DNA of 49,507 nt, taken from the NCBI GenBank assembly GCA_937859535.1, contig CALLYL010000458.1, positions 1 through 49,507 of the forward strand, in the 5' to 3' direction. Below, one piece after another: positions 29,736 to 48,118 of this stretch; within the stretch, counting starts at the first letter, position 1, and each line of letters opens with the position of its first letter. Made by a program: the position numbers and the translations under genes. The notes under the pieces were generated by a model. The model was not told the DNA's origin and searched no databases. It was given only the letters and a program-made list of their open reading frames with translations. This DNA comes from an uncultured Myxococcales bacterium. GTDB taxonomy: Bacteria > Myxococcota_A > Polyangia > Palsa-1104 > JAEUJZ01.

Positions 29736-31208
29736 TCAGCGCTTTCGGAGTAAGGCGAGGGTGATGTCGCAGCGATCGCTGGCCCCATAGGGCACTCGTT
29801 CCAGCGTCTGCCAACCACAGCGGCTTAAGCACTCGATCAGTGGCTCGCATTCGTACCGTCGATTCCGAAAGACCGCAAAGCGTCGCTTCTGGGGCGAGCC
29901 TTGGGTAGAGACATGCGCCACGTACGCCAGCTCATAACAACCTCGGATCAACCCATCGGTGTTGATCTCCAACGACAGCTCCACATCGGTGACGCCCTTC
30001 ACATATCGATAGAGCGGACCGGCTAGTAAGGTCCGTGAACCCGCATGTATGCCCGCTCGGAGATTTGGATCTTGTTCCCGAATCAACTCGGGGCTATCCG
30101 CCGGAGCGTAGGCATTGGTGAAGTCCAACACGAAGAAGTCGCCAGCGGCGGCAGATGCCATCGTGTCCCGGAAGAACCGCACTTCATTGTCCAGGTTCGC
30201 AAGCGTACAGCCGAGCATGGTGAATACCCGCGTGCGGGTACGGACATCTCGCTCCGAATACAGCGGGTACTTTGGCAGATCGTGAAAGTTACCGTGCAGC
30301 GCCACGATGCTCGTCACCGACTTGCCGAGGATATCGCGGGCGTTGTTATGACCCACGGTCAGCAGCAGATGGCTGATGTCGAGCAGAAACAGCCGCACGT
30401 CCGTGATTCCATGTCGCCGCCCGTGCTGAATCAGCGACTCCACCAGCTTGGACTCTCGCTTGGCGTCGCCGCAGCCGAGTGCAATCACATCCAAACCCCC
30501 TGCCCCTGCGGACGATGCAATCCGCTGCGCCAGGTGCTCTAAGGGAATGGTGTTGCTAAATGCCTTGGCGTAGCTCGGCGATTCACAGATATCGAGAAAG
30601 TCCTTCGCGCTCTGATAGTCCAAGTATGCGGTGGTCTGCTCCAAGGCCCCGCCCGAGCTATTGAGCTGCTCTACCATCGATGTGATGAGCTGCGCCGGAT
30701 CATAGTGCGGGGCCAGCCATGACGTCGGAATGATGCTGTCCCCGGTCGGATCGGCGGTGATGTCTTCCAGCCGTAACCCGAGCGGCGGCGAAGCGAGCAG
30801 GCGCAGTAGCACTTCCCGACTCGGCCTCCGCTGTCCGCTTTCGATCGCTCGAACCATCGCCTCGCTGATGTCGATCAGCTCCGCCAGTTCCTTCTGTCCC
30901 AGGTTCGCCTGCATCCGCTTGCGCTTGAGCTGCTTGGCCAGGCGCGCCCAGTCGACCTTCACGCTGCCATCGACCCACGGCTCCTCTTCATCATCGCCAC
31001 CGCGCAGACAGAGCTGCGCTTTTTGCAGATGCATCACGCTTTCTCGCAGCGCATGGTGCTTCGGATTCAGCGCCAGCAGCCGCTGTCCGTGGTTCAAGAC
31101 CTCTGCCACCTGTCGCCGCAGCTCGCGCAGCGCCGCCGTCACTTCACTGCTCGGGGCATCCGTCCCGCCCGTCGCCACCCGCGCCACACTCTCCGCACTT
31201 GCATCCAT
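29736..31208 (-). CDS. XRE-family HTH domain fused to an EgtD-like (Methyltransf_33-like) SAM-methyltransferase domain
   Basis: HTH: LGQKELAELIDISEAMVRAIESGQRRPS. The C-terminal half shows, in order, VIALGCGDAKRESKL, LFLLDISHLLL, ALHGNFHDL, FTMLGCTLANLD and GDFFVLDF. These parallel EgtD motifs ELGSGxxxK, Y.P.DIS, GDF, FLGSTIGN and GDxLLxGxD. Confidence 0.6.
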   Translation of the reverse strand: MDASAESVARVATGGTDAPSSEVTAALRELRRQVAEVLNHGQRLLALNPKHHALRESVMHLQKAQLCLRGGDDEEEPWVDGSVKVDWARLAKQLKRKRMQANLGQKELAELIDISEAMVRAIESGQRRPSREVLLRLLASPPLGLRLEDITADPTGDSIIPTSWLAPHYDPAQLITSMVEQLNSSGGALEQTTAYLDYQSAKDFLDICESPSYAKAFSNTIPLEHLAQRIASSAGAGGLDVIALGCGDAKRESKLVESLIQHGRRHGITDVRLFLLDISHLLLTVGHNNARDILGKSVTSIVALHGNFHDLPKYPLYSERDVRTRTRVFTMLGCTLANLDNEVRFFRDTMASAAAGDFFVLDFTNAYAPADSPELIREQDPNLRAGIHAGSRTLLAGPLYRYVKGVTDVELSLEINTDGLIRGCYELAYVAHVSTQGSPQKRRFAVFRNRRYECEPLIECLSRCGWQTLERVPYGASDRCDITLALLRKR

Positions 31209-31358: not shown

Positions 31359-31745
31359 ATGGAAACCGCCGAAGCAAAGAGTCTGTCCCCCTCTGGTTCG
31401 CCCGTCTCGCCCGCCACCTCCGGCCCGTCCGACCCCACCACCGATCACGCCGAGCCCGCCGAGCCCGCCGCGCAGAGTCCGCCCAAGCCCAAAGCCCACC
31501 GAGGCTTTGCGGCCATGAATCGCGAAGCCCATCGCCTGCTCGCCAGCGCCGGTGGCAAGAGCGCCCACGCCTACGGACTCGCGCACCGCTTCACCCCCGA
31601 ACAGGCCCGCGAGGCTGGAAAAAAAGGAGGTGCCAAGACCGCCGAAGATCGCGCCCACATGGCCGAAATCGGTCGCAAGGGCGGCATCGCCAAAGGAGAA
31701 AGTTATTTATTTTCCACCGTCGGAAAAACCGCAAAGAAATCCTAG
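31359..31745 (+). CDS. KGG-repeat general stress protein
   Basis: GFAAMNREAHRLLASAGGKS, EQAREAGKKGG and IGRKGGIA are KGG stress-induced repeat motifs. AAGGAG lies 8 nt upstream of ATG 31359. Confidence 0.7.
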   Translation: METAEAKSLSPSGSPVSPATSGPSDPTTDHAEPAEPAAQSPPKPKAHRGFAAMNREAHRLLASAGGKSAHAYGLAHRFTPEQAREAGKKGGAKTAEDRAHMAEIGRKGGIAKGESYLFSTVGKTAKKS

Positions 31746-31831: not shown

Positions 31832-32536
31832 ATGGGAGTTCTCATCAATAAAAAGGCCGCGATCGATGACATCGTCAGTGACTGTCGCAGCACCCTGACT
31901 GCCGCCGAGGCACGCGGCGGAACCATTGCGACCCTGGCCCAGCAGTATCTGAAGGGTCCGCTGGGAGTCTTCGATCTGGTCGATCAGCGCGTACGCAGCG
32001 CCCAGTCTGTGCTGACCCCACTGCTTGCCCAGCTTGATGTCAAAGACGAGGAATCGGACGGCCTGCTCGGGCGAGTCTCGGATGACATCTGGAACGACAT
32101 CGGTCGTCCCGCTTCCGACCCGACGTTTTCGCTGCTGTTTCCCGATGGGATTGGCTTTTATACCGATGGCCCCGATGACGAGCAGCCGATCAAAATGGAG
32201 CTACTCGCCGAGCTACTCGAAGCCAACCTGCACCCCAAGCTCGATGGCAAGAAAGCCAAATCGCTCGGCAAGCAGATTCGCGACTCCGCCAAGGCCCTGC
32301 GTACGGCGGTCGAGCAGGTCCAGACTCCGCGTGCGCAAGTGGCGATGCTCAGCCGAGCGCGCTCCGCAATTGCCCGCAGCCTGCAAATCTCGCTGGTGAA
32401 CCTCAAGCGCCACTACAAGGCGACCGGCATCAGCGATGCCCAGATCCACAGCATCATGCCCGACCGCAGCCGCCCGGCGGCCAAACCCGCAGCCGCCCCG
32501 CAGCCGCCCGCCCCGCCCGCGCCTCCGCACACCTAA
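31832..32536 (+). CDS. hypothetical protein with Pro/Ala-rich C-terminus
   Basis: 234-aa ORF with AAAGGAA upstream. No family recognised. The TAA stop at 32534-36 lies 16 nt before the repeat array. Confidence 0.5.
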   Translation: MGVLINKKAAIDDIVSDCRSTLTAAEARGGTIATLAQQYLKGPLGVFDLVDQRVRSAQSVLTPLLAQLDVKDEESDGLLGRVSDDIWNDIGRPASDPTFSLLFPDGIGFYTDGPDDEQPIKMELLAELLEANLHPKLDGKKAKSLGKQIRDSAKALRTAVEQVQTPRAQVAMLSRARSAIARSLQISLVNLKRHYKATGISDAQIHSIMPDRSRPAAKPAAAPQPPAPPAPPHT

Positions 32537-32551
32537 CCCCCCCGCTTTCCG

Positions 32552-32822
32552 GCTTCCATTTGGAATGGAAGCCCATTCCCTGTCCGCTTTCCCGCTTCCA
32601 TCCACGATGGAACCCGTTTTCCAAGCAGAAAGGTCGTTCCATTCGCAATGGAAGCCGAGATCCTGTCCAGGATCGGGCTTCCATTCCCAATGGATCTCGA
32701 TTTCCGGTCTGGTTCCAGCCTTCCATCTGAAATGGAACCCGAATTCCGAGCGAAGCGCCCACTTCCATTCCCAATGGAACCCAGTTTCCGCCCTCCCCCT
32801 CCGATCCATTCACAATGGAAGC
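32552..32822. repeat. array of seven phased 42-bp (41-42 bp) units, each with a TTCCAT(T)-N3-(A)ATGGAA palindrome
   Basis: Palindromes lie at 32552-72, 32594-614, 32635-55, 32677-96, 32719-39, 32761-81 and 32803-22. The arms are conserved, while the central 3 nt and the roughly 21-nt inter-palindrome segments vary. Confidence 0.85.
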
Positions 32823-32837
32823 GGCTTTTTGCGCGGA

Positions 32838-32869
32838 CGCAGCCAGTTTGCGCGCTGGATTCGCGGTTT
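32838..32869. repeat. left copy of a perfect 32-bp direct repeat (CGCAGCCAGTTTGCGCGCTGGATTCGCGGTTT)
   Basis: Identical to 35064-35095. It ends 1 nt before the stop codon of the DUF4276-like gene. Confidence 0.9.
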
Positions 32870-33502
32870 CTAACCGATCTTTGGAAATCCATCCATGGAT
32901 GAAAGTGTGCTCAACGCGGCTTTCAGATCGGCCCAGAACGCCCTAAATGCCTCCAGCTCATGAAGTGCACTGAAGTCACGAATGCACTCGGCCACACGAT
33001 GCACCATGAATGCTTGTTCCTGCTTGAAACGTTTGCGGCGGCGTTGACCCAGTGTTCCGGCCGCATCCATGAGCAGCCGCTCCAGGTCCTTCTTCGGGTC
33101 GGGCAATCTCTCGATATCTCTGGTTCGTGGCAGTTCGATGGCAGTCCGACCATTGGGGTTGCCACTTGCAATCCGCAGGGCTTCCGCGTCGATCAAAAGC
33201 CACGCTTCTGTCATCCGTACCGGGATAACCGGCACAACATAGTCAACTCTTGGGACTTCCGTGCGTCTCGCTGCTAGTGGTAGCCGTTCGGCATCTCGAT
33301 GCACGAAGATCAACGCCGGTTTGTACTTGTTTCGTACATCTTCTACCGTGGCATCTACAGCGCAGCTCCCGCGATGCACAAACGGTTGGGGAGCAAAGTC
33401 TATCTGTGGAGCCAACCGTCGCAGTGACCACGATAAGATGGGCAACAGCGCACGGTCAGACGTACCGTCACCAATCAGGGCATAGTCGATAACTTGCATC
33501 AC
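32870..33502 (-). CDS. DUF4276-like protein (possible Toprim-like partner of the upstream ATPase)
   Basis: About 210 aa. YALIGDGTSDRALL, LIFVHRDAER and VIPVRMTEAWLLIDAEAL resemble my recollection of the DUF4276 consensus (..vEG.sE.., ..D.D.., ..EAWlLaD). The start overlaps the ATPase stop (GTGATG). Confidence 0.6.
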   Translation of the reverse strand: MMQVIDYALIGDGTSDRALLPILSWSLRRLAPQIDFAPQPFVHRGSCAVDATVEDVRNKYKPALIFVHRDAERLPLAARRTEVPRVDYVVPVIPVRMTEAWLLIDAEALRIASGNPNGRTAIELPRTRDIERLPDPKKDLERLLMDAAGTLGQRRRKRFKQEQAFMVHRVAECIRDFSALHELEAFRAFWADLKAALSTLSSMDGFPKIG

Positions 33503-34878
33503 TCGGCAGTTCCGATTTGGAGCGCAAGTTGTTGCCCTTTTAGGCCTTCTCCGAGCGGGGCTCCACCGAGGAAATCATAGAGGCGCTTTGGAGAGATAGC
33601 ACCATGGTCTCCACGCCACGTCCCGCTCACCGGACGAACACGAGCATGGCGTCCATCTGGTCCATCAACCGGCTCGACAAAGAGAATTTGATCCTCATCG
33701 AGCTGACGAGCGACATCGGGAGAGTGGGTATTTAGTATCACCTGGCGCAGCGGGTTATCGATGGCCACAGGCATTGATGGATCGACCGCGAAGTCACGCA
33801 GGAGCATAACCATGTCTCGTACGCGGCTTGGATGCATGCCATTTTCTGGCTCTTCCATGCACAGGACCGTACTTGACACCGGATCAAGTTGCATGGTGAC
33901 TAGCGCGAGAAACCGAAGTGTACCGTCGGATAGCGACCTTGCGCTAAGCTCTTGTGCACAACCGCCCATGCGGGCAAGCAGGACGAGCTGCTGACGTGCT
34001 TCATCTCGATCGACACGTAGAGACTTAATGTCAGGTACCAATGCAGAGAGTCGATTGGCTGCATCCTGCAGAGTCTGCCCCGGGGTTTGGTCTTCAGCCG
34101 CCAAACGCAGTAGCGTTGCGGCAATGTGCCCGCCTAGCTCATCTACACTCGAGGCCCCTCCGATCGGATCAGGAGCACGCATTGCAGAAGGTTCCAAATG
34201 AACTGCATGCCACGAAGCCATCTCGCGTCTGGCAGCAAGAACCGTTGGATACTCGGCAGCATTTGTTCCACCAACAACGGTTCTTGGTGATCGTCCGGCA
34301 GGAATGGCTCGGCCTCTGCTCCCGCCATCTTGATGAAGAGATACTACGATGGAGCCGTCAGGACGGGTCTCGGGGGAAACAAGAGGCCCAGCACGACGAG
34401 CTTTCCCCAGGACCGCTTTGCGAAACTCTGCTTCGTGTGCGAATCCAATGACTGATTTGCCATCGCTGAGCTTCAGGTTGGTGAGCTTCTCGTGTGTGAG
34501 TTCCAGGCGAGGAACGGGTACTTCGGAATAACGGAAGGCGACTTCATATCGAAGAAATCTAGCGGTCGGGTTCGCTGGTCGGCCAAAATCGTCCACGACG
34601 CTGCTCGGAACAATCATATCGGCGACAAACGACATCTCCCCCGCTGGGCCGGCTCCCCAAAAAAGATCGCGAGGACCGAAGGTTCCAAATGAGGGACTAC
34701 GCACCGCCGCAGCGGCTCTGGGTATCTCATTATCTGCCAGCAGACGGAGAAACTGTATTGCGTCGAAAACATTCGACTTCCCCACTCCGTTATGGCCCAC
34801 AAAGCACGTTAGAGGACCGAATTGCACATCGACGTCGAGCAGATTCTTGAAGCCCTTGATATGAAGCCGTAGCAGCAT
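33499..34878 (-). CDS. ABC/SMC-like AAA ATPase (AAA_15/AAA_21-like, OLD/PARIS-AriA-type N-terminus)
   Basis: MLLRLHIKGFKNLLDVDVQFGPLTCFVGHNGVGKSNVFDAIQFL is the RecF/OLD-type N-terminus, with Walker A at 34774-34797. Walker B/D-loop region LCMEEPENGMHP and H-loop VILNTHSPDV are present. Confidence 0.8.
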   Translation of the reverse strand: MLLRLHIKGFKNLLDVDVQFGPLTCFVGHNGVGKSNVFDAIQFLRLLADNEIPRAAAAVRSPSFGTFGPRDLFWGAGPAGEMSFVADMIVPSSVVDDFGRPANPTARFLRYEVAFRYSEVPVPRLELTHEKLTNLKLSDGKSVIGFAHEAEFRKAVLGKARRAGPLVSPETRPDGSIVVSLHQDGGSRGRAIPAGRSPRTVVGGTNAAEYPTVLAARREMASWHAVHLEPSAMRAPDPIGGASSVDELGGHIAATLLRLAAEDQTPGQTLQDAANRLSALVPDIKSLRVDRDEARQQLVLLARMGGCAQELSARSLSDGTLRFLALVTMQLDPVSSTVLCMEEPENGMHPSRVRDMVMLLRDFAVDPSMPVAIDNPLRQVILNTHSPDVARQLDEDQILFVEPVDGPDGRHARVRPVSGTWRGDHGAISPKRLYDFLGGAPLGEGLKGQQLALQIGTAE

Positions 34879-35063
34879 AGATTCTGACCTTACCTCGGGT
34901 TGAGGTCTTAGTAGCGGGTACCTGTATCACGAACCGAAAACAAGCTCTATCAAGTCGACGACCAACTGAGCGGCTCTGGAAGTTACTACCAGTCCGCTCA
35001 TCTGAACCTCTTTGCTGCGTCGGTTTGCCCATCCCCCGTGCAGAATCGAGCCCTGTGCGCTCC

Positions 35064-35095
35064 CGCAGCCAGTTTGCGCGCTGGATTCGCGGTTT
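35064..35095. repeat. right copy of the perfect 32-bp direct repeat
   Basis: Identical to 32838-32869. It lies 27 nt upstream of the phnW start codon. Confidence 0.9.
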
Positions 35096-40469: not shown

Positions 40470-42179
40470 TTACTGTTGAATCGGTCTCCCAAAGAAGTAC
40501 AGCTGGCCAGGTCGGTAGGCTACCGATTCACGACTCTCCAGAAACTTCTGCGCACTGGCAGCCGCCATCTGGGGGTCGAAGCCTTCCGACGTTTCCCAGT
40601 CGGAGCAGTTGATACCCGTGGAAGCCTCAAACCTCTGGCGCAAGTCGACGGTAAGCTCGGGCCCATATTTGAGGTCGATGATCTCGCGGGCGAGCGCGAT
40701 CACACCAAACAGACCGCCGCGAAAGATAGGTACATCTTCCCGACCAAGCCGTTGAGACAACGCTTGATAGCAAATGGTGGTCTTCTCGCAACAGGCCTGA
40801 CACCCGATAGGTTGGTGGGGTCCATGCCGCACCGCCTGAAACGCGAACATCTGGTTTAGTCTACTTTCCAAATGAGCATACTTGGGGTTGTTGGCGTTTC
40901 GGCGGTAGGCCTCTAGTACGAGTGGGACATCGCAAAGCATGCTGCGGCGAAGGAGCCCCCAGCACAGCGAATAGGTCAGGTCGGGTGACGCCCCCCGACG
41001 GATTGTTTCTCGCCAGGGATCGAGGACGCAGTCATCTGCTGCGTCTGCGATCAGGTCAATGGCGGCACGTTGGAACATCGGCTCATTGTCCTTGCCGATC
41101 AAGGCAGACAAACCCTCTAGCGGAGTACGATTGCCCGACATCGCTGCACGAAGGCAGGTGTGCAGGGAAAGCCAGGGCCAGTCTCGATGAATCGTCAGCG
41201 CTGCTGAAGGTGGAGGCGTTGTCGACCGAACAAAGTACCCACCTCGGAACGGCTCGAAGCCGAGAGGTAGGGCGAAGTAGTCGTCCACATCGAAGATCGT
41301 GCGCACCTCAGGCACATCCATTCCTCGATTGGGTGGGTACGCCGCGAAAATCTGCGCAGCAGATCCGACATCTTCGATAAAGTGGCCCATAAAAATGTGC
41401 TGGCCGACTGGGTAGCCGTTGGCCTTCCCAGATTCATGGAAGAGCTCAAGATCCGCCCTGGCTTGGAGCAAGTTGACTTTGCCATGGGTGAACCACTTGC
41501 TGCATGACAGTCCCGTGGTCACCTCGAATTTGTGGCGATCGTCTGGATCCAACAAGCCCTTGCGAAGATCCTTCAGCATCGCCGTCACGAGGGATCCAAG
41601 CGCAAATGCGCGGCCACGGTAGACATGGATCAGATTGGTTCCGAGTTCGTTCCATAGACGGAAGTAGCGCTCCGCAACCGCCGTCCGATACTCTTCCCAT
41701 TGCTCCTCTGGAGGCGCGGATAAGGACTCCTCGGCAGGCTTGGTAAGAAGCCAGTCCAGCATCATAGGAATGCTGTCGGAGTCGGTGTGTCTCCGGTTCA
41801 TCTCATAGAACCGGAACAACACCGGAACATCCGCCAGTCGCCCTCTCGCAGCCAACGCGGTGACGATATCTAGACCGCGATCGAATGAGGTACTCTTCTG
41901 AAGAGTAAGAACCAGGGCTTCAAGATCGGCTGCGGTTCCGGCGTCTGCCACCACGCTACAAGCGACGCCGTGAAGTTCAGTATCGCGAGTTTGCCCGATG
42001 AGTTCCCTCACTACCTGGCTCACCAGCCCAAATGCTCCGTGGCGTGCTTGCGTGATGGTGGCCCTTAGTAGGCCCCATTCGTCACGGGGAGCAGGGTGGC
42101 GTGCAGCCTGTTGTAAGTCCTCGGCAGGGAATGCGTCGTAGCCTGCGCCGTACCAGTCAAACGAACGTTCATCATCCAT
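40470..42179 (-). CDS. internally duplicated hypothetical protein; candidate immunity protein for the adjacent DUF4150 toxin
   Basis: It lies 5 nt downstream of the toxin gene on the same strand. The two halves are homologous (YRGRAFALGSLVTAMLKDLRKGLLDPDDRHKFEVTTGLSCSKWFT vs FRGGLFGVIALAREIIDLKYGPELTVDLRQRFEASTGINCSDWET). Confidence 0.55.
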   Translation of the reverse strand: MDDERSFDWYGAGYDAFPAEDLQQAARHPAPRDEWGLLRATITQARHGAFGLVSQVVRELIGQTRDTELHGVACSVVADAGTAADLEALVLTLQKSTSFDRGLDIVTALAARGRLADVPVLFRFYEMNRRHTDSDSIPMMLDWLLTKPAEESLSAPPEEQWEEYRTAVAERYFRLWNELGTNLIHVYRGRAFALGSLVTAMLKDLRKGLLDPDDRHKFEVTTGLSCSKWFTHGKVNLLQARADLELFHESGKANGYPVGQHIFMGHFIEDVGSAAQIFAAYPPNRGMDVPEVRTIFDVDDYFALPLGFEPFRGGYFVRSTTPPPSAALTIHRDWPWLSLHTCLRAAMSGNRTPLEGLSALIGKDNEPMFQRAAIDLIADAADDCVLDPWRETIRRGASPDLTYSLCWGLLRRSMLCDVPLVLEAYRRNANNPKYAHLESRLNQMFAFQAVRHGPHQPIGCQACCEKTTICYQALSQRLGREDVPIFRGGLFGVIALAREIIDLKYGPELTVDLRQRFEASTGINCSDWETSEGFDPQMAAASAQKFLESRESVAYRPGQLYFFGRPIQQ

Positions 42180-42184
42180 CGGAC

Positions 42185-43270
42185 TTATCCCAACTTCTGG
42201 AAGTCAGTAAATTCGGCTTCCAGTTTCTTACAGGCTGGACACAATTTCTTGTCGAGGGTCAAGTTCCCCTGACCCGTAGGGCATCCACCGGCACTTTTGG
42301 GGGTGAGGTGGTTCACTTGATCATCCTCTTCCATCTCTCTCAGAGGCGGAATACGGTCTGCACTGGCTTTTTGTTGCTGCGCTTTCCTGTAGTTTCGCCA
42401 TTTGCTATCGATGCTTTTATGCTGCTTCTGACGCTCGTCACCCTTGGACGGTTGTTTATGGTAGACATCGCAAGGAGGACTAGGGGCAACCGGAGGGCAA
42501 CCACAGCTTTTGGCAGCTACTGCTTTGCGGCTTAACTCTTTGTACTCTCTCAGCTTTTTGTCACGCCAGGCGTTCTGTTCAGCGAGTTCGGCTTCTTTTT
42601 TAGCAAGCTTGAATCCGGCGGCAGTGATTGCATCAGCGTCCCCACCCTTCAGCGCGTTCGCCAGCGCCTGCTTGTTCGCGTCGATGCCCTTCTGAATGCC
42701 TTGGCTTCTGCGCGCAGACTCCTCTTGGATATTGTCCTCATACCACTCATCACGATGCATATCTGCGCCATCGGAATGCTGAGGGCCGTTGCAGCAGGCG
42801 CACTTCTTGTCTGCGATGGCTTGGGTGGCAGCAGCCTGCATTTCAGCATTGGGGAAAGGTGGCGTGCTGCCCGGATAGCTGGCGTGATTGCTGGTGGTGA
42901 GGTCGAGATGCCGGCAGACATTCTTGCCCTCGACCATCACGTCCATCGAGTGGGCCGCAAAGTAGGTCTTGCCCGAGATGGTATGGGTGATCACTGCGCC
43001 ACCAAAGTTGCGGGTCGCCGCTTCATTTCCCAAGGGAGAGGACTGATAAAAGCTCTGTCCCTTGAGAGCGAGCGGCTTGACGCCAATCTTCACGGTCGTG
43101 CTTCCGTCCTGTAGATCCTTGGCAAACGACGTGTTGGGATACGGCACTGGCACGGGCCCGGCGGGCGGCGGCGGTGGGCTCAGACACACATCGGGAAACG
43201 CGGCCAGCACTTTGCCATCGCCCGCCTTGTGGGCGATCTCCATGTTGTTAGCGAACACGTTTTTGCCCAT
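42185..43270 (-). CDS. DUF4150 (PAAR-like) T6SS effector with HNH/EndoVII-like C-terminal toxin motif
   Basis: The N-terminal MGKNVFANNMEIAHKAGDGKVLAAFPDVCLSPPPPPAGPVPVPYPN...MVEGKNVCRHLDLTTSNH is typical DUF4150. The C-terminal VNHLTPKSAGGCPTGQGNLTLDKKLCPACKK fits the HNH pattern (H...GG....NL..L C..C). AGGAG lies upstream. Confidence 0.7.
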   Translation of the reverse strand: MGKNVFANNMEIAHKAGDGKVLAAFPDVCLSPPPPPAGPVPVPYPNTSFAKDLQDGSTTVKIGVKPLALKGQSFYQSSPLGNEAATRNFGGAVITHTISGKTYFAAHSMDVMVEGKNVCRHLDLTTSNHASYPGSTPPFPNAEMQAAATQAIADKKCACCNGPQHSDGADMHRDEWYEDNIQEESARRSQGIQKGIDANKQALANALKGGDADAITAAGFKLAKKEAELAEQNAWRDKKLREYKELSRKAVAAKSCGCPPVAPSPPCDVYHKQPSKGDERQKQHKSIDSKWRNYRKAQQQKASADRIPPLREMEEDDQVNHLTPKSAGGCPTGQGNLTLDKKLCPACKKLEAEFTDFQKLG

Positions 43271-43284
43271 GTGGATGCGCTCCT

Positions 43285-44307
43285 CTACTGAACGCTGGTG
43301 AATACGACGGCGGCGCGAGCACCTTGTTCGTTACCAGCACAGGCCAACGCTCGCGGACCGGGTGCATACTGTCGTTGCCAGGCAGCCATGGCCCACAGCA
43401 GGCTGCATAGCCCTGCGGCGGCTCCGGTATCACCCAACGACTCTGCGGGGAGCCAGAGCGGGAAGTCGGGCTTCCGTTCAAGAAGCAGCCGAGACACGAG
43501 CAGCGCTTGCTCTTTGAAGTGGAAGCTCTCGCCTGCGGCATCGGACAGCCGGAAGTCGAGGTCGTGCAGCTGCAAGCTGGCCTCCGACAGCGCCGCACGG
43601 ACTGCGGCAATCAGTCCATCCGCACGCAACGGGATCTCGTTGCCAAGAAGCGACGGCTCCGTTGCAAACCCGACCCCACAGAGTTGAGCGAGCGCGTCGC
43701 GGCTGTCTTGGCTGAGCATCAGCGCGGCAGCGGCCTCGCCCGGAATCAGTCCGTCGGAGTTGCCTTCCACGATCAAGCGGTCCTGCTCCGCCAGTGGGAG
43801 CAGCCTCCACGCAGAGAGCAAGGAGTCGGCTGCCGCTACGACACACGGCACGCCAGCACGGACGCTCGCACGGCCCAGATCGAGCGCCAGGTAACCACCG
43901 CAGGCACCTCCTGTCAGGAGGTGGAGGTTGTCCGGCGAAAGCTGTAGGCCGAGCGTTCGGGACAACGCTTCACAAGCAAACGCAGCAGAGTAAGCTTGGC
44001 CACCGCGTGCCGGTGGAAGTGTCAGAAACAACGGCATCCGCTGGAGCACCACTGGTCCACCCCGGTGTCGTGTGACGTCTCGCAGCGCGTGGGTGAGCAG
44101 AAACAGCCACCGCTCCTCATACGAGGAATCCTCGGACAGCAAGTCGCGTAGAGAGGACGCGACGATCTCTCGACCTTGGTTGTCACGGTATGCAGAACTG
44201 CTCTTGCGCGTGATCCCGGCACGCATGGCCGCGCAGGCGCAAGCCCAAGTCATGCCAACCGGACAGGCCAGCCCTGCGGCACTCACGTAGACTGGTGCAG
44301 ACGTCAT
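43285..44307 (-). CDS. thiolase-fold / beta-ketoacyl-synthase-like protein (degenerate)
   Basis: PVYVSAAGLACPVG, a Cys-containing LTGGACGGYLALDLG and the C-terminal ACAGNEQGARAAVVF resemble KAS N-terminal, nucleophile and C-terminal Gly-rich segments. The ATGA overlaps the DUF2169 stop (44304-44307). Confidence 0.5.
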   Translation of the reverse strand: MTSAPVYVSAAGLACPVGMTWACACAAMRAGITRKSSSAYRDNQGREIVASSLRDLLSEDSSYEERWLFLLTHALRDVTRHRGGPVVLQRMPLFLTLPPARGGQAYSAAFACEALSRTLGLQLSPDNLHLLTGGACGGYLALDLGRASVRAGVPCVVAAADSLLSAWRLLPLAEQDRLIVEGNSDGLIPGEAAAALMLSQDSRDALAQLCGVGFATEPSLLGNEIPLRADGLIAAVRAALSEASLQLHDLDFRLSDAAGESFHFKEQALLVSRLLLERKPDFPLWLPAESLGDTGAAAGLCSLLWAMAAWQRQYAPGPRALACAGNEQGARAAVVFTSVQ

Positions 44308-45419
44308 GATCGTCCTTCGCGGCGCTGGCGGAGCCACCGGATGGCATCGGCCAGCCCTGCAAAGCGGGGCTTTCCGTTGCGGTAACCGACGGGTCGACGG
44401 CCCTCACAGAGGGGCAGATCGCCCACCAACACGTCCCGCAGCGCTGTCAGTTTCTTACGCAACGGGACGCTGGCGCGCCAGACCAGCGTGGCCCGGAACA
44501 GGTGTGGTTCCAGGATGACAGTGTCGAGCACGGCAGTACGCTCCGCTTCGGCATCACAGAAACGAAACCGCACAGGTACGGTCCACGAAGGAAGGACGTA
44601 CTCGACCAGCTCTTGCTCGGCCATGTGTATGCAGCAGATCCGCTCACCGCCTTGGAAGTGGGGAAATTGCTGGTCCAGCGGCGCGCACTGAAAGTAGTGC
44701 GTATCGAAGTCTGCGGGCAGGTACGGCGCTCGCTCGTCGCGCCAGCGCTTGTCGTAGGTACCCGCCAACGTCACACGCGGCTGCCAGGCTCGACCCACAC
44801 AGCCAAAACCCACCGGCTCGTGGTGATCACGCGGGGACGCAATGGCACGCCCGAGCTGCTCAATGTTGGGGACGGGCAGACCGGCCATGCGGGCGCGGCT
44901 ACGATGCGGATGGAAGCCGACGCCGACCGGATTGCGCGGCTCGACCACCACTTGGTCGGGCCCTCGGCTGTCGTCGAACCCACCCCAGGCGCGGTCGAAG
45001 GTGATGGGGATTTCCGCAAAAGGGACCGGGTCGCTGATCCCCACCATACCCAGCGTCGTGGTCCAGCACCGATCACCATAGACCGTCAGCTCTTTGCGTC
45101 GCCCCTGCACCTCCAACCGTACAGCCAGCTTCGTGACACACCGCCCTGGTGGCGCGACCGCCTTGCCGACCACGATCACATCGGTTTGCGGCTTCTCTAG
45201 CGCGAAATCACTTTCGTAGCGCACGCAGGTAAAGGCGGGATCGCCGTAGTGCTCGTCAGCGGTCACCAGTGGCTGCTGTGCTTCGACAAGCGTCATCGCG
45301 CCGCCTGCACTGGTTTGGAAGGTGCCCTTGATCACCACCACACAGTGGTCGCACGCGTCCTTGTCGGTGGCGACCGTCAGCCCGGCCAGCATGCCCGTCG
45401 TATTCGCAGTGATGTGCAT
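44304..45419 (-). CDS. DUF2169 domain protein (T6SS effector adaptor/chaperone family)
   Basis: VVVIKGTFQ...LVTADEHYGDP...VRYESDFALEKPQTDVIVVGKAVAP...LTVYGDRCW follows the DUF2169 N-terminal consensus as I recall it. Confidence 0.75.
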   Translation of the reverse strand: MHITANTTGMLAGLTVATDKDACDHCVVVIKGTFQTSAGGAMTLVEAQQPLVTADEHYGDPAFTCVRYESDFALEKPQTDVIVVGKAVAPPGRCVTKLAVRLEVQGRRKELTVYGDRCWTTTLGMVGISDPVPFAEIPITFDRAWGGFDDSRGPDQVVVEPRNPVGVGFHPHRSRARMAGLPVPNIEQLGRAIASPRDHHEPVGFGCVGRAWQPRVTLAGTYDKRWRDERAPYLPADFDTHYFQCAPLDQQFPHFQGGERICCIHMAEQELVEYVLPSWTVPVRFRFCDAEAERTAVLDTVILEPHLFRATLVWRASVPLRKKLTALRDVLVGDLPLCEGRRPVGYRNGKPRFAGLADAIRWLRQRREGRS

Positions 45420-45565: not shown

Positions 45566-48118
45566 TTATTTGCGGGCGCGTTCGCAGACGACGGCGCGGG
45601 TGCCGAGCGGCTTGCCGGACAGGGCGACGATGGTGGGCTCTACTTGTTCCTCGGGGACGAACAGGTAGGCGTGCGAGCTGTGCAGCTCCATCGGGATCTC
45701 TGACACGCCTTGGGCGGCTACAAACTGCCGCAGGCCGGTATCATCGAGGTTGTCGCGACGACCGACGTTGAGGTACAGGCGAACCTCACCGGGGCTTGGC
45801 GGTCGACTGTCCCGCAGCGGGCGGCGCGGGCGACGATCGCCACCGTCATCGGTAGCGGGCACCTCGCCACCACGGGCGGCGGGTTCCGTCGAGGGCGCAT
45901 CGCTCGGCTTGGAGGTCTTGGCGCGGGCATCGGCCCAGGCTTCCCAGAACTCGCGGCCGTCATCGGTATGGATGATGTCGGTCGGCGTGCCCGCCGGCGT
46001 CCCGATTGGGGCTTGCACCTGAGCGGGCTCAGCGCTGCGCTCGCCCGGCTCATCACGACGAGGTCCACGGCCTCGGTCCCGATCCCCATCGCGACGACGG
46101 TCATCGCGACCCGGACGCCGGTCATCACGACCCCGCCGGTCCTCGTCACGAGCTGGTCGCCGATCATCGCGAGGACGACGATCCTCACCAACATTACGGC
46201 TGTCGCCCCCGCGACCCGGTCCTTCGGGGCGGAGAATAGCACCTTCCGAGCGCGGGGCTGGCGCTTCCGTTCGTGGGGCAGGAGCTTCGGGACGCAGTAC
46301 GGGTGCTTCGGCTCTCGGTGCGGGTGCTTCGGCTCGGGGCGCGGGTGCTTCGGCTCGGGGGGCTGGAACCTCTGGGCGCGGCGCGGGTGCTTCGGCTCTC
46401 GGCGCAGCAACTTCTGGACTGCGCACGGGCGCGGGCCGGGCCGGACGACCGGCGTCATCACGCGGACGGCGATCGTCTTCACGCGGGCGGCGATCGTCCT
46501 CACGCGGGGGCCGCCGTTCGGTCGGGCGAGACGGTCCCTCCCCACCGCCCTGTGGCGGATGAGTGGGACGCGAGGGACGGTGGTTTAGGTGCTGCTCCAG
46601 CAGCATCGCCAGCACCGATTCCCCCGATTCACTCGCCAGCAGCCGCCGGAGCAGCGAGCGGTACTCGGGCCCCGGATTCTTGCTGCCGAGATCCTTGTGC
46701 AGCCGGTCCATGAACTGACCCTCGCGCAGCGTCTGCACCTCGGCCTCGGTCGGCAGAGCGCGCTCCTCGGGGCGAATCTTGTAGGTCAGCTTGAGGTAGT
46801 AGAAGTTCCCCAGCTCTCGCGGGCTGATGAGCGACACCGCGATGCCGCGCTTGCCCGCCCGTCCGGTGCGACCCGTGCGGTGGACGTAGACCTCGGCGGA
46901 CTCGGGGAAGGTGTAGTTGATGACAAACGGCAGGTCGGAGATGTCGATTCCGCGAGCTGCGACATCGGTGGCGCACAGGAACTTGAGATCCTTGGCCTTC
47001 ATCCGCTTCATCACCCGCTCGCGCTCGGTCTGGTTCAGATCCGACGAGATGGGCTCGGCGTCATGGCCGTTGTTGCGCAGGAACTCGGCAACGGCGGACG
47101 TCTCTTCGCGGGTGTTGCAAAAGATGATCGCGCTCTCGGGACGCTCGATCTCGATGACGCGCAGCAGGTCGCGCATCCGGCCCATGCCGGTGACCATGTA
47201 GTAGGCATGGACGATCTCGGCAGCCGAGATGCCCTCGCCCGATAGATGGATGTTGAGCGGCGAGCGCAGGTAGCGGTGCTGCAGGCGCAGCACTTCATCG
47301 GGAATCGTCGCCGAAAACAGCAGCGTCTGTCGCTCGGGCGGGCAGCGCTTCAGGATCTCGGTGATGTCTTCGAGGAAGCCCATCGACAGCATCTCGTCGG
47401 CTTCATCGAGCACCAGCGCCTTGACCTTCGACAGGTTCAGGGTGCCGCGTCGGATGTGATCGAGCACGCGGCCCGGCGTACCGGACACCAGGTGGGCACC
47501 GGCCTTGAGCGCGTCGACCTGACGACCCATCGGCGCACCACCGTAAATGGCGGTGATCGACAACTGCCGTTTGGCGGCGATGCGACCAATCTCGTTCGAG
47601 ACTTGCAGCGCCAGCTCGCGGGTCGGTCCGAGCGCCAGCACCTGCGGGAAGCCGTTTCGGACATCCGCCTTCGGATCGAGAATCGACTGCACAAACGGAA
47701 TGCCAAAGGCCGCCGTCTTTCCCGAACCAGTACGGGACTGAACAATCAGGTCGCGCCCGGCAATCGCGGGTCGGTACACCCGCTGCTGGACCGGCATCGG
47801 CTCGGAAAAGCCCATGTCGCGCAGGGAGCTGGCCACGTCCTCGGACAGGCCCATCTCTTCGAAGGTGCGCGGACAGGGACCGTAGTCGGCTTCAGTCAGC
47901 TCGCTTTTGGCGATGGCAGGAGGAGCGGCAGAGGTGAGCGCGGCACCTGTGGGCGGCTGGGCATGCACAATGGCAGCCTGCACAGGGACAGCTTCGGACG
48001 CAGCGCTATCGGTCAGGGCCGAAGCAGTGATGGACGATGAAACGGGGGCGGAGGCTTGGGCCTCTGCTGCGCCAGCGAGCAGCGTCTTGCTGTCGCTCGG
48101 CGAACCAGTATCTTGCAT
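45566..48118 (-). CDS. DEAD-box ATP-dependent RNA helicase with repeat-rich linker and DbpA-like C-terminal RNA-binding domain
   Basis: Q-motif region, motif I SRTGSGKT, Ia PTRELA, II DEAD (VLDEADEM), III SAT and VI HRTGRTGRAG. The C-terminal VRLYLNVGRRDNL...GKPLGTRAV resembles the DbpA domain. AGAGG lies upstream of ATG 48118. Confidence 0.9.
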   Translation of the reverse strand: MQDTGSPSDSKTLLAGAAEAQASAPVSSSITASALTDSAASEAVPVQAAIVHAQPPTGAALTSAAPPAIAKSELTEADYGPCPRTFEEMGLSEDVASSLRDMGFSEPMPVQQRVYRPAIAGRDLIVQSRTGSGKTAAFGIPFVQSILDPKADVRNGFPQVLALGPTRELALQVSNEIGRIAAKRQLSITAIYGGAPMGRQVDALKAGAHLVSGTPGRVLDHIRRGTLNLSKVKALVLDEADEMLSMGFLEDITEILKRCPPERQTLLFSATIPDEVLRLQHRYLRSPLNIHLSGEGISAAEIVHAYYMVTGMGRMRDLLRVIEIERPESAIIFCNTREETSAVAEFLRNNGHDAEPISSDLNQTERERVMKRMKAKDLKFLCATDVAARGIDISDLPFVINYTFPESAEVYVHRTGRTGRAGKRGIAVSLISPRELGNFYYLKLTYKIRPEERALPTEAEVQTLREGQFMDRLHKDLGSKNPGPEYRSLLRRLLASESGESVLAMLLEQHLNHRPSRPTHPPQGGGEGPSRPTERRPPREDDRRPREDDRRPRDDAGRPARPAPVRSPEVAAPRAEAPAPRPEVPAPRAEAPAPRAEAPAPRAEAPVLRPEAPAPRTEAPAPRSEGAILRPEGPGRGGDSRNVGEDRRPRDDRRPARDEDRRGRDDRRPGRDDRRRDGDRDRGRGPRRDEPGERSAEPAQVQAPIGTPAGTPTDIIHTDDGREFWEAWADARAKTSKPSDAPSTEPAARGGEVPATDDGGDRRPRRPLRDSRPPSPGEVRLYLNVGRRDNLDDTGLRQFVAAQGVSEIPMELHSSHAYLFVPEEQVEPTIVALSGKPLGTRAVVCERARK
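46254..46405. repeat. seven tandem 21-bp coding repeats (7-aa APAPRAE-type units) inside the helicase gene
   Basis: The units GGGTGCTTCGGCTC(T/G)(C/G)GG(T/C/G)GC at 46301, 46322, 46343 and 46385 are nearly identical. The copies at 46254, 46275 and 46364 are degenerate. Confidence 0.8.

What the first reader, a model, noticed from the sequence alone, without database searches (positions are those of the whole stretch)
32552..32822. Seven phased 42-bp repeats, each with a TTCCAT(T)-N3-(A)ATGGAA palindrome: a sopC-like or multi-hairpin array
The palindrome centres recur every 41-42 bp, which is about four helical turns, so all sites face the same side of the DNA. The 7-bp arms are conserved, while the central 3 nt and the roughly 21-nt spacers differ in every unit. 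Unit 2 carries a compensatory change (T..A to C..G at the innermost arm pair). This organisation resembles plasmid centromeres such as F sopC (tandem 43-bp units, each with an inverted repeat) or iteron/operator arrays. If transcribed, it would form a string of seven hairpins in the 3' region of the upstream gene. Before the neighbouring cassette was inserted, the array would have sat directly upstream of phnW, so it may be an unusual operator field for phnWX. I know of no regulator with this recognition sequence.
Basis: seen in the sequence. Interest (0 to 1): 0.7.

Follow-up and report, generated by a model that had tools for sequence, protein, structure and literature searches.

The report
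Gene-linked array of phased binding sites
Seven evenly spaced short palindromes sit right after an uncharacterised gene, and this gene-plus-array pairing recurs across a whole group of soil bacteria (Myxococcota) with a different palindrome in each lineage, which suggests an undescribed protein-DNA assembly rather than an RNA element or a phnWX operator.

Summary
TCCAT-N5-ATGGA occurs 7 times in the window (0.01 expected), all at 32555-32819, spaced 42,41,42,42,42,41 bp.

The array belongs to the upstream 234-aa gene (31832-32536), not to phnWX. That gene defines a family with no database annotation: at least 417 clusters at 50% identity, and every organism-labelled locus is a Myxococcota/Polyangia MAG. 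A ~42-bp periodic array follows the gene in 42 of 66 loci, against 3-8% of control regions. The site sequence is lineage-specific, and two paralogues in one genome use TCCAT and TCCAG.

Evidence favours double-stranded DNA sites over RNA hairpins:
- The period is 41-43 bp (four helical turns), with a third half-site at +21 bp.
- Non-Watson-Crick pairs show no G·U excess.
- Some units keep only a half-site or direct repeats.
- Strong terminators precede the array in several lineages.
- In one lineage the array lies upstream of the gene.

The best reading is a cognate protein-site module resembling sopB/sopC in architecture. It is not a family member: there is no ParA/ParB and no HTH domain match, and it is chromosomal. 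The binder and the function are inferred, not shown.

The array's edge is also an insertion hotspot (HEC-01, PARIS and an integrase element).

The parts
31832..32536 (+). 234-aa gene of an unannotated family, the conserved partner of the array. The predicted fold is a long three-helix hairpin with an acidic conserved tip (residues 60-138), a basic helix (139-197) and a Pro-rich tail.
   Evidence: No Pfam, NCBIfam, PADLOC or PHROG hit. Homologues (417 clusters at 50% identity). AF2 pLDDT 90.8. No structural neighbour with E<0.1. Charge profile.
32547..32830 (+). The whole array: seven 41-42-bp units starting 11-19 bp after the stop codon and ending in a T-run (32826-32830).
32552..32572 (.). 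Unit 1 palindrome GCTTCCATTtggAATGGAAGC
32594..32614 (.). Unit 2 palindrome GCTTCCATCcacGATGGAACC
32635..32655 (.). Unit 3 palindrome CGTTCCATTcgcAATGGAAGC
32677..32697 (.). Unit 4 palindrome GCTTCCATTcccAATGGATCT
32719..32739 (.). Unit 5 palindrome CCTTCCATCtgaAATGGAACC
32761..32781 (.). Unit 6 palindrome ACTTCCATTcccAATGGAACC
32802..32822 (.). Unit 7 palindrome CGATCCATTcacAATGGAAGC
32576..32789 (+). Third half-sites (a)TTCC in the spacers of units 1-6, starting at 32576, 32619, 32660 (ATCC), 32702, 32744 and 32786. They have the same orientation as the 5' arm and lie about 22-23 bp (two helical turns) from it. They are conserved in orthologous arrays whose spacers are otherwise diverged.
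32855..32859 (+). In-phase degenerate eighth unit that retains only the CTGGA half-site. It lies inside the left direct repeat of the cassette.
32838..32869 (+). Left copy of the exact 32-bp direct repeat bounding the inserted cassette (CGCAGCCAGTTTGCGCGCTGGATTCGCGGTTT)
32870..34878 (-). Inserted two-gene candidate defence cassette: HEC-01B (32870-33502) and HEC-01A (33499-34878). It is not part of the module but marks the insertion hotspot at the array's edge.
   Evidence: PADLOC 1e-25 and 1.8e-89. Absent in L013; replaced by PARIS AriA/AriB in L001.
35064..35095 (+). Right copy of the 32-bp direct repeat

Best explanation
The array is a double-stranded-DNA element: a field of sequence-specific protein-binding sites held in register on one face of the helix. 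Full palindromic sites recur every four turns, with extra half-sites at two-turn offsets. Several copies of a binding protein would assemble cooperatively on it into one ~290-bp nucleoprotein complex.

The binder is most likely the product of the adjacent 234-aa gene, acting next to its own gene. I infer that it is a coiled-coil dimer whose conserved basic helix (residues ~169-197, followed by a short helix after a G-phi-S turn) contacts the TCCA/TGGA half-sites. The conserved acidic tip would point away from the DNA and recruit a partner.

Protein and sites co-diversify, so each lineage, and each paralogue within a genome, has its own site sequence.

Shown here:
- The array exists and is under purifying selection on sequence.
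- It is linked to the gene family across Myxococcota.
- It has a helical-turn periodicity.
- The evidence argues against an RNA-stem function.

Inferred, not shown:
- That the adjacent protein is the binder.
- Its dimeric binding mode.
- The biological output. Candidates are a centromere-like or landmark complex, a roadblock or insulator, or a recombination hotspot organiser.
For: Linkage:
- A ~42-bp (or double) periodicity is the top autocorrelation lag in 42/66 regions downstream of family genes, against 4/50 upstream, 2/65 coding and 2/44 far-downstream controls.
- In 633 kb scanned, strong arrays of this kind occur only beside the family gene. The exceptions are two coding repeats.
- No other gene is conserved in the neighbourhood.

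Selection on sequence:
- Between the window and L014/L015 (70% and 67% protein identity), arms are 89-93% identical and spacers 37-45%.
- Units are orthologous one-to-one. The count of 7 and the spacing pattern are kept exactly in L013, L015 and L009, and L014 differs by 1 bp at one step.
- All arms within an array share one sequence while the spacers differ. This implies a sequence-specific trans factor, not recent duplication.

Co-diversification:
- TCCAT (window, L013-15), TCCAG (L016/17), TCCC[GC] (L011), TTCCAGGCCTGGAA (L019), CTCCACACGTGTGGAG (L023/28/29/88), TCCCACACGTGTGGGA (L026), GACTTC-N8-GAAGTC (L081) and others.
- L014+L016 and L015+L017 are paralogue pairs within one genome, with distinct arms.

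DNA rather than RNA:
- The period is 41.0-42.7 bp, about 4 x 10.25-10.7 bp, and tolerates +/-1 bp within an array.
- A third half-site lies at +21-24 bp.
- G.T versus A.C mismatches number 13 vs 19 and 118 vs 110, so there is no wobble excess.
- L016/17 units 3 and 6 conserve only one half-site.
- L057 and L073 units use direct repeats.
- Strong intrinsic terminators lie between the stop codon and the array in L058, L081, L049, L087 and L028.
- The array is upstream of the gene in L073, and moderately so in L069.
- Rfam gives nothing.

Protein plausibility:
- Helix 139-197 has net charge about +9, with conserved R175, R177, R182, K192, R193 and K196.
- The disordered N-terminal tail carries a conserved K7.
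Against: - The protein has no recognisable DNA-binding domain or structural neighbour. Its most conserved part is an acidic tip.
- C-terminal fragments give only sub-threshold hits to RWP-RK and a winged-helix model.
- Co-variation of protein and site cannot be separated from shared phylogeny. The paralogue contrast rests on one ancient duplication and a 1-bp difference per half-site.
- L009 and L034 arrays mix T/G/C at that position, so discrimination there may be loose.
- Arm-to-arm spacing varies from 8 to 12 bp between lineages, which is unusual for a rigid dimer.
- About one third of family loci show no detectable periodic array.
- In the window's clade the array directly follows the stop codon with no terminator, so it will be transcribed there.
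- No full palindrome lies in the gene's own promoter.
Confidence: 0.5

Rival explanations
1. The sites are double-stranded-DNA targets of an unlinked factor, such as a global regulator or nucleoid-associated protein of Myxococcota. The 234-aa gene is merely the regulated or neighbouring gene. For example, the array could control the gene's expression or termination from downstream.
For: All of the DNA-level evidence applies here too. The adjacent protein has no known DNA-binding fold. The half-site core TCCA/TGGA recurs across many lineages, as a conserved host factor would require.
Against: No second gene is conserved nearby. The sites do not occur elsewhere in the 49.5-kb window or in 10-20-kb flanks, which is odd for a global factor. 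Two arrays in one genome differ consistently, TCCAT against TCCAG. Site sequences differ radically between lineages while the gene-array linkage persists.
Confidence: 0.2
2. This is an RNA element. The units fold into a string of hairpins in the 3' UTR of the 234-aa gene, or in a separate small RNA. It would stabilise the mRNA, terminate transcription, or bind or sponge an RNA-binding protein, possibly the gene's own product.
For: In the window's clade the array starts 11-19 nt after the stop codon with no intervening terminator, and it ends in a T-run (32826-32830). Both strands fold well below shuffles, z about -6. Variable arm spacing with conserved stem bases would suit hairpins. In some lineages the first unit is itself a terminator hairpin.
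Against: - Non-Watson-Crick positions show no G.U enrichment on either strand.
- Only 5 bp pair reliably; outer positions pair 30-55% of the time.
- Half-site-only units and direct-repeat units are conserved.
- Predicted MFE folds use long-range inter-unit pairing, not local hairpins.
- Strong terminators precede the array in at least 5 lineages.
- The array is upstream of the gene in L073.
- The strict 41-43-nt period equals four DNA turns.
- No Rfam family matches.
Confidence: 0.12
3. The array is primarily a recombination or integration target (an att-like field) that attracts mobile cassettes, and its conservation reflects that role.
For: There are three independent insertions at or in the array within one species-level group:
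- The HEC-01 cassette, bounded by exact 32-bp direct repeats that include the in-phase eighth half-site.
- A PARIS cassette starting right after unit 7 in L001/L003.
- A tyrosine-integrase element inserted inside unit 2 in L033.

Defence-like genes also flank the module in L009 and L099.
Against: Most loci have no cassette or integrase nearby. Purifying selection on 7 phased units and their linkage to a non-recombinase gene are not explained by this role. Hotspot behaviour can be a by-product of a permissive intergenic site with palindromes.
Confidence: 0.08
4. The array is an operator field for phnWX, or a dispersed REP/BIME-type selfish repeat.
For: The array lies directly upstream of phnW in the empty-site relatives L013 and L011. 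The palindromes sit in an intergenic position after a stop codon, as REPs do.
Against: In other lineages the array is followed by unrelated, mostly convergent genes. The motif is not dispersed: 7 of 7 copies in the window are in the array, and it is absent from all flanks. No RAYT transposase is in the window.
Confidence: 0.04

Closest known systems
F-plasmid sopC centromere with SopB (type Ia partition), and related centromere arrays such as R1 parC/ParR
   Same: Both are tandem units of about four helical turns (43 bp in sopC, 41-43 bp here). Each unit carries a short inverted repeat, so all sites face one side of the DNA. The array lies immediately downstream of the gene for the (proposed) binding protein. 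In sopC the regular spacing is thought to organise a higher-order complex (PMC3177203).
   Different: - sopC repeats are well conserved over the whole 43 bp, and their number varies from 3 to 17. Here only the palindrome and one extra half-site are conserved, and the number is fixed at 7 in the window's clade (about 7-9 overall).
- SopB is an HTH ParB-family protein with a partner ParA ATPase (SopA), and the Sop-type centromere sequences recovered in PMC3177203 were all on plasmids of Enterobacteriaceae.
- Here there is no ParA/ParB in the window or the neighbourhoods examined. The protein matches no HTH or other DNA-binding domain in Pfam and has no significant structural neighbour.
- The loci are chromosomal Myxococcota, with no PLSDB or viral homologue.
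Iteron arrays flanking plasmid rep genes (from my own knowledge: P1 incA downstream of repA, F incC, R6K gamma-origin with seven 22-bp iterons)
   Same: An array of repeated binding sites sits next to the gene of the protein that binds them. In P1 and F it is downstream. The sites are phased with the helical repeat, the site sequence is lineage-specific, and the protein acts in cis.
   Different: Iterons are direct repeats of about 17-22 bp bound by winged-helix Rep monomers, and they are associated with an origin (AT-rich region, DnaA boxes) on plasmids. Here the units are 42 bp and mostly palindromic, there is no Rep-like protein or plasmid context, and the GC content is 55%.
REP/BIME extragenic palindromes
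   Same: These are short imperfect palindromes clustered after stop codons and between genes, with a species-specific sequence.
   Different: REPs are dispersed in tens to hundreds of copies and are linked to RAYT transposases. This motif is confined to a single array tied to one gene family.
CRISPR arrays and type III toxin-antitoxin RNA repeat arrays (ToxI-like)
   Same: Both are regular repeat-spacer or tandem-unit arrangements beside a protein gene.
   Different: Here the 21-nt 'spacers' are orthologous between genomes and carry a conserved half-site. The unit number is fixed. There are no cas genes or ToxN-like protein, no RNA signature, and the frame-breaking 41/42 spacing rules out coding.

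Membership tests
Type I (ParABS/SopABC) partition centromere | Adjacent parA (Walker-type ATPase) and parB/sopB (HTH centromere-binding protein) genes | tested here: not met
   Pfam, NCBIfam and PADLOC scans of window ORFs and the precomputed Pfam of nine neighbourhoods show no ParA/CbiA/ParBc domain. No neighbour gene is conserved.
Type I (ParABS/SopABC) partition centromere | Tandem, helically phased units each containing an inverted repeat bound by a dimer | tested here: met
   There are 7 units with 41-42-bp spacing and a 5-6-bp inverted repeat. Binding by a dimer was not tested.
Type I (ParABS/SopABC) partition centromere | Located on a plasmid or near a chromosomal origin, and confers segregational stability | not testable with these tools
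   The window is ordinary chromosome-like DNA, with no PLSDB homologue of the protein or the array. The distance to oriC is unknown, and stability is an experimental property.
Iteron-type replication/incompatibility array | Adjacent Rep initiator (winged-helix) gene and origin features | tested here: not met
   The adjacent protein is an all-helical hairpin with no Rep Pfam match. The array GC content is 54.6% with no AT-rich block.
REP/BIME | Many dispersed copies in the genome; RAYT transposase | tested here: not met
   All 7 exact copies in the 49.5-kb window are in the array. With 2 mismatches there is only one extra hit, the chance level. There are no arrays away from the family gene in 633 kb. 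Whole genomes could not be scanned.
CRISPR array | Identical repeats of 21-48 bp, unique spacers of 26-72 bp that vary between strains, and cas genes nearby | tested here: not met
   The spacers are 21 nt, orthologous between genomes, and contain a conserved TTCC box. No cas genes were found.
Structured RNA (multi-hairpin UTR / known Rfam family / Csr-Rsm sponge) | Base pairs maintained by compensatory and wobble changes; match to a covariance model | tested here: not met
   There is no G.U excess (13 vs 19; 118 vs 110), and the outer stem pairs 30-55% of the time. Rfam gives no meaningful hit at E<=10 in the window, and none at gathering score in 10 loci. Terminators lie before the array in 5 lineages.
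phnWX operator | Conserved position upstream of phnW/phnX wherever the array occurs | tested here: not met
   This holds only in the window's close relatives (L011, L013). Elsewhere the downstream genes are unrelated and mostly convergent.

The most novel reading that the evidence does not exclude
This is a previously unrecognised class of chromosomal protein-DNA module in Myxococcota. A coiled-coil protein with no match to any known DNA-binding domain assembles on a fixed-number, four-turn-phased array of its own lineage-specific sites beside its gene. The result is a self-identifying nucleoprotein landmark, with paralogous modules kept orthogonal by different site codes. It would serve chromosome organisation or segregation without a linked ParA, or it would organise a hotspot where defence cassettes and integrative elements are captured.
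Probability: 0.3. Interest if true: 0.85.

Novelty: new variant of a known kind. Interest (0 to 1): 0.72.

Why it matters
The work links a large, completely unannotated protein family (at least 417 clusters at 50% identity; no Pfam, NCBIfam or structural neighbour) to a concrete cis element that can be tested. That gives an immediate experimental handle: EMSA or ChIP of the protein on its own array.

If the protein is the binder, it defines a new DNA-recognition fold. It would also be a natural set of orthogonal protein/site pairs with a built-in cooperative, helically phased scaffold. Such a set is relevant to chromosome organisation in the very large genomes of Myxococcota and could be useful as synthetic-biology parts.

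The insertion of three different mobile or defence elements at the array's edge in one species group suggests that such arrays may mark or create integration hotspots.

Tried and rejected
- Rfam at E<=10 on the window region and at gathering score on 10 diverse loci: nothing meaningful.
- Foldseek of the confident AF2 model against PDB and BFVD: only generic helical bundles with E>0.1.
- PDB profile search: the hits to 4-6x concatenated RecA chains are a summation artefact, because no single stretch passes.
- Rosetta-stone idea, that family members with alternative C-termini carry canonical HTH domains: rejected. P0031 is identical to the L017-type protein to residue 131 and then switches into a sigma-54 activator C-terminus, so it is probably a chimeric assembly. 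The other truncated matches have frameshift-like Arg/Pro/Gly tails, and P0090 is fused to PKS fragments.
- Permissive Pfam scan of C-terminal fragments: only sub-threshold RWP-RK and winged-helix hits.
- Conserved-neighbour search for a partner gene: none. The apparent clusters were shadow ORFs.
- The HTH-methyltransferase fusion upstream (29736-31208) recurs in only one other locus (L019), so it is not a general partner.
- Coding-repeat reading of the array (42 = 14 codons): rejected, because the 41/42-bp alternation and the 41-bp arrays break the frame.
- Plasmid and phage searches with the protein and the array, and a viral-contig scan: no match.
- Single-sequence RNA folds of both strands are stable, but they use long-range inter-unit pairing and cannot discriminate the models.
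- Phmmer of the L033 integrase against all ORFs in the held loci: no other integrase next to an array.

Full report

Yes. The pattern TCCAT-N5-ATGGA has exactly seven matches in the 49,507-bp window, against 0.01 expected from dinucleotide-preserving shuffles. They start at 32555, 32597, 32638, 32680, 32722, 32764 and 32805, with spacing 42,41,42,42,42,41. The 21-nt repeat family spans 32552-32822. Relaxing to two mismatches of the 17-mer adds a single hit elsewhere, which is the chance level.

- The array is strand-asymmetric, with 16 TTCC against 7 GGAA on the + strand. The spacers of units 1-6 each carry a third half-site, (a)TTCC (ATCC in unit 3), 21-24 bp after the start of the palindrome and in the same orientation as the 5' arm. 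TTCC therefore recurs about every 21 bp, and every second copy has an inverted GGAA partner.
- Only 5-6 bp of each arm is solidly conserved.

**2. What does the array belong to?**

The array starts 11-19 bp after the stop codon of a 234-aa ORF (31832-32536, +). That ORF has no Pfam, NCBIfam, PADLOC or PHROG match.

*Same-species contigs.* Metagenome contigs encoding the identical protein all carry the same seven sites. They differ in what follows the array.
- The window has a two-gene cassette on the - strand. PADLOC calls it HEC-01B/HEC-01A (1e-25 and 1.8e-89).
- L001 and L003 have a PARIS AriA/AriB cassette on the + strand instead.
- The 98%-identical Polyangia MAG locus L013 has no cassette, and its array runs straight into phnW.

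So the array stays with the upstream gene, and the variable DNA begins at its edge.

*More distant homologues.* Homologues of the protein come from Polyangia, Myxococcales and 'Deltaproteobacteria' MAGs. A profile search of 1.84 billion cluster representatives finds 417 clusters at E<=1e-3, nearly all of 210-290 aa. Every homologue at 63% identity or more has a phased array right after its stop codon, but the arms change.
- L014 and L015: TCCAT...ATGGA.
- L016 and L017: TCCAG...CTGGA. These are second copies in the same two genomes as L014 and L015.
- L011: TCCC[GC]...CGGGA.
- L009 and L034: mixed arms.

Homologues at 40-50% identity have arrays of the same period built from unrelated motifs. 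Examples are TTCCAGGCCTGGAA (L019), CTCCACACGTGTGGAG plus ATTCGAAAAA (L023/L029/L088), TCCCACACGTGTGGGA (L026), CTTGCACGCGTGCAAG plus GGAGCGCGGGGAGG (L079/L082), GACTTC-N8-GAAGTC plus GAGCGCAGGATCGG (L081), and direct-repeat units in L057 and L073.

*How specific is the linkage?* A lag of 41-43 bp or its double is the strongest 4-mer autocorrelation peak in 42 of 66 downstream regions. The controls give 4/50 upstream, 2/65 coding and 2/44 regions 1 kb further on. The exceptions are two coding repeats.

No other gene is conserved in the neighbourhood. The contexts are ordinary chromosomal genes. Excluding the inserted cassettes, the next gene is convergent in five of the seven independent neighbourhoods examined and is phnW in the other two (window/L013, L011). 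The window itself has no ParA/ParB, Rep, integrase, RAYT or cas gene. The phnWX-operator idea and the REP idea therefore both fail.

**3. Selection**

Between the window and L014/L015 (70% and 67% protein identity), the arms are 89-93% identical, the central 5 nt are 57% identical, and the spacers are 37-45% identical.

Units are orthologous one-to-one. The number (seven), the 42/41 spacing pattern and some unit-specific centre sequences persist.

All arms of one array share a sequence while the spacers between them are unrelated. The homogeneity therefore cannot come from recent duplication or gene conversion. It implies recognition by a sequence-specific factor whose specificity shifts between lineages. 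L009, with mixed TCCAT/TCCAG/TCCAC arms, looks like a relaxed or transitional state.

**4. DNA or RNA?**

Several independent lines favour duplex DNA.
- **Period.** It is 41.0-42.7 bp in every lineage, equal to four turns at 10.25-10.7 bp per turn. It tolerates +/-1 bp within an array, and the extra half-site sits at two turns.
- **Pairing.** The core 5 bp is almost always complementary, but positions -1 to -3 pair in only 30-55% of units. Non-Watson-Crick positions show no wobble excess on either strand: 13 vs 19 in the curated set, and 118 vs 110 in the automated set, the same as a coding control.
- **Non-hairpin units.** Units 3 and 6 of L016/L017 conserve only the 3' half-site. L057 and L073 use direct repeats. 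Neither can form hairpins.
- **Terminators.** Strong intrinsic terminators (-20 to -30 kcal/mol) lie between the stop codon and the bulk of the array in L058, L081, L049, L087 and L028.
- **Position.** In L073 the array lies upstream of the gene, and the gene is followed by a terminator with no array. L069 shows a weaker upstream signal.
- **Rfam.** No meaningful match.

In favour of RNA, the window's clade has no terminator before the array and a T-run after unit 7, so the array is probably transcribed there. Both strands also fold more stably than shuffles, but through long-range inter-unit pairing rather than local hairpins. I put the DNA-level reading at about 0.7-0.75.

**5. Who binds?**

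This is inferred, not shown. The only gene that co-occurs with the array is the 234-aa gene, and paralogous copies in one genome have different arms.

The AlphaFold2 model, built from 29 homologues, is confident (pLDDT 90.8). It has an N-terminal helix and two ~60-residue antiparallel helices. A small globular tip (residues 90-138) is the most conserved part of the protein. A short helix follows a G-phi-S turn, and the protein ends in a disordered Pro-rich tail.

The protein is charge-polarised. Residues 60-138 carry about -10. Helix 139-197 carries about +9, with conserved R175, R177, R182, K192, R193 and K196. The flexible N-terminus has a conserved lysine. A basic helix at the base of a coiled coil is a plausible DNA-reading element, and the acidic tip is a plausible partner-binding surface.

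Against this, there is no structural neighbour and no significant domain match. Isolated C-terminal fragments reach only 12-17 bits on RWP-RK and winged-helix models. Putative domain-swap relatives turned out to be chimeric or frameshifted sequences. I give the cognate-pair model about 0.5, and an unlinked binder about 0.2.

**6. Comparison with known systems**

The closest architecture is the F-plasmid sopB-sopC arrangement. It has 12 direct 43-bp repeats, each with a 16-bp inverted repeat bound by SopB. The 43-bp spacing corresponds to four helical turns, so all dimers sit on one face, and the authors propose that this organises a superhelical partition complex (PMC3177203).

Membership fails on the defining features.
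- There is no ParA or ParB, the protein matches no HTH domain, and the module is chromosomal rather than plasmid-borne.
- Outside the sites the units are not conserved.
- The unit number is fixed rather than variable.

Iteron arrays downstream of rep genes are a second analogy and differ in the same ways. REP/BIME, CRISPR, type III TA repeats, known RNAs and the phnWX operator were each tested and not met (see the membership table).

**7. Side finding: an insertion hotspot**

In the window the HEC-01 cassette is bounded by exact 32-bp direct repeats at 32838-32869 and 35064-35095, 2,226 bp apart. The cassette GC content is 55.7%, against 61.6% and 65.4% in the flanks. The repeat occurs once in the empty site and contains an in-phase eighth half-site, CTGGA.

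In L001 a PARIS cassette starts 11 bp after unit 7. In L033 (97% identical protein) the array is broken inside unit 2, and a tyrosine integrase gene follows.

That makes three independent insertions within about 350 bp in one species-level group. Whether the array promotes this is open.

**8. Verdict**

The finding is real, non-random and evolutionarily conserved, and it is not explained by any annotated family. The RNA-hairpin and phnWX-operator suggestions are not supported.

Novelty: a new variant of the known kind 'DNA-binding protein gene plus adjacent phased site array'. There is a real chance (about 0.3) that it is a new class, given that the protein matches no known DNA-binding domain and no ATPase partner is linked.

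Interest: 0.72.

Noticed in passing
window 32838-32869 and 35064-35095 (cassette 32870-35063): The two-gene HEC-01A/B candidate defence cassette is bounded by exact 32-bp direct repeats 2,226 bp apart. Its GC content is lower than that of the flanks (55.7% against 61.6% and 65.4%). The empty site (L013) has one copy of the repeat. This looks like site-specific or repeat-mediated insertion without a resident recombinase.
   Followed up: partly
L001 4994-7366 and L003 (same species group as the window): At the same position between the array and phnW, these contigs carry a PARIS (AriA/AriB) system on the opposite strand instead of HEC-01. The left junction is 11 bp after array unit 7. This is a defence-gene hotspot with at least three allelic states.
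   Followed up: partly
L033 3766-4999 (contig Ga0209174_10000088), probably also L032: The array is interrupted inside unit 2, after ...GATGGA. A tyrosine integrase (PF00589, 2.6e-14) and an HTH_31 gene follow. An integrative element appears to use the array as its attachment site. Its far end lies outside the fetched DNA.
   Followed up: partly
window 31359-31745 (+): A 128-aa ORF just upstream of the family gene has a Pro/Ser-rich N-terminus and KGG-like repeats (…GKKGGAKT…IGRKGGIAKG…). It resembles small general-stress proteins. It has no Pfam hit at 1e-5 and a weak PHROG hit (phrog_30946, 2e-08). It is present only in the window's close relatives.
   Followed up: partly
window 29736-31208 (-): This is an unusual fusion of an XRE-type HTH (HTH_3/HTH_31) with an EgtD-like SAM methyltransferase domain (Methyltransf_33). 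A homologue lies 3.2 kb downstream of the module in L019, but not in other loci.
   Followed up: partly
window 46243-46508, within ORF 45566-48118 (-): There are 21/42-bp tandem repeats (TRF scores up to 144) inside the C-terminal part of a DEAD-box helicase ORF. This is a 7-aa coding repeat. The same 42-bp periodicity arises there for a different reason, and the region also showed up as a false positive in L013 8600-9150.
   Followed up: yes
L029 5001-5632 (genome CAWFUX01, which also holds L023): The second copy of the family gene in this genome is split into two overlapping ORFs, a probable frameshift or pseudogene. Its downstream array is still recognisable and uses the same motif as L023.
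   Followed up: no
L049 +72, L087 +53, L081 +108, L025 +105 after the stop codon: In several lineages the intrinsic terminator hairpin after the gene is itself built from the lineage's array palindrome, for example GGTCTGTGCATGCGCAGACC. The first array unit appears to double as the terminator.
   Followed up: partly
window 42185-43270 (-) and neighbours 40470-45419: A Tox-PAAR-like domain protein (4.7e-28) sits among several large ORFs without Pfam matches. This may be a toxin-delivery locus.
   Followed up: no
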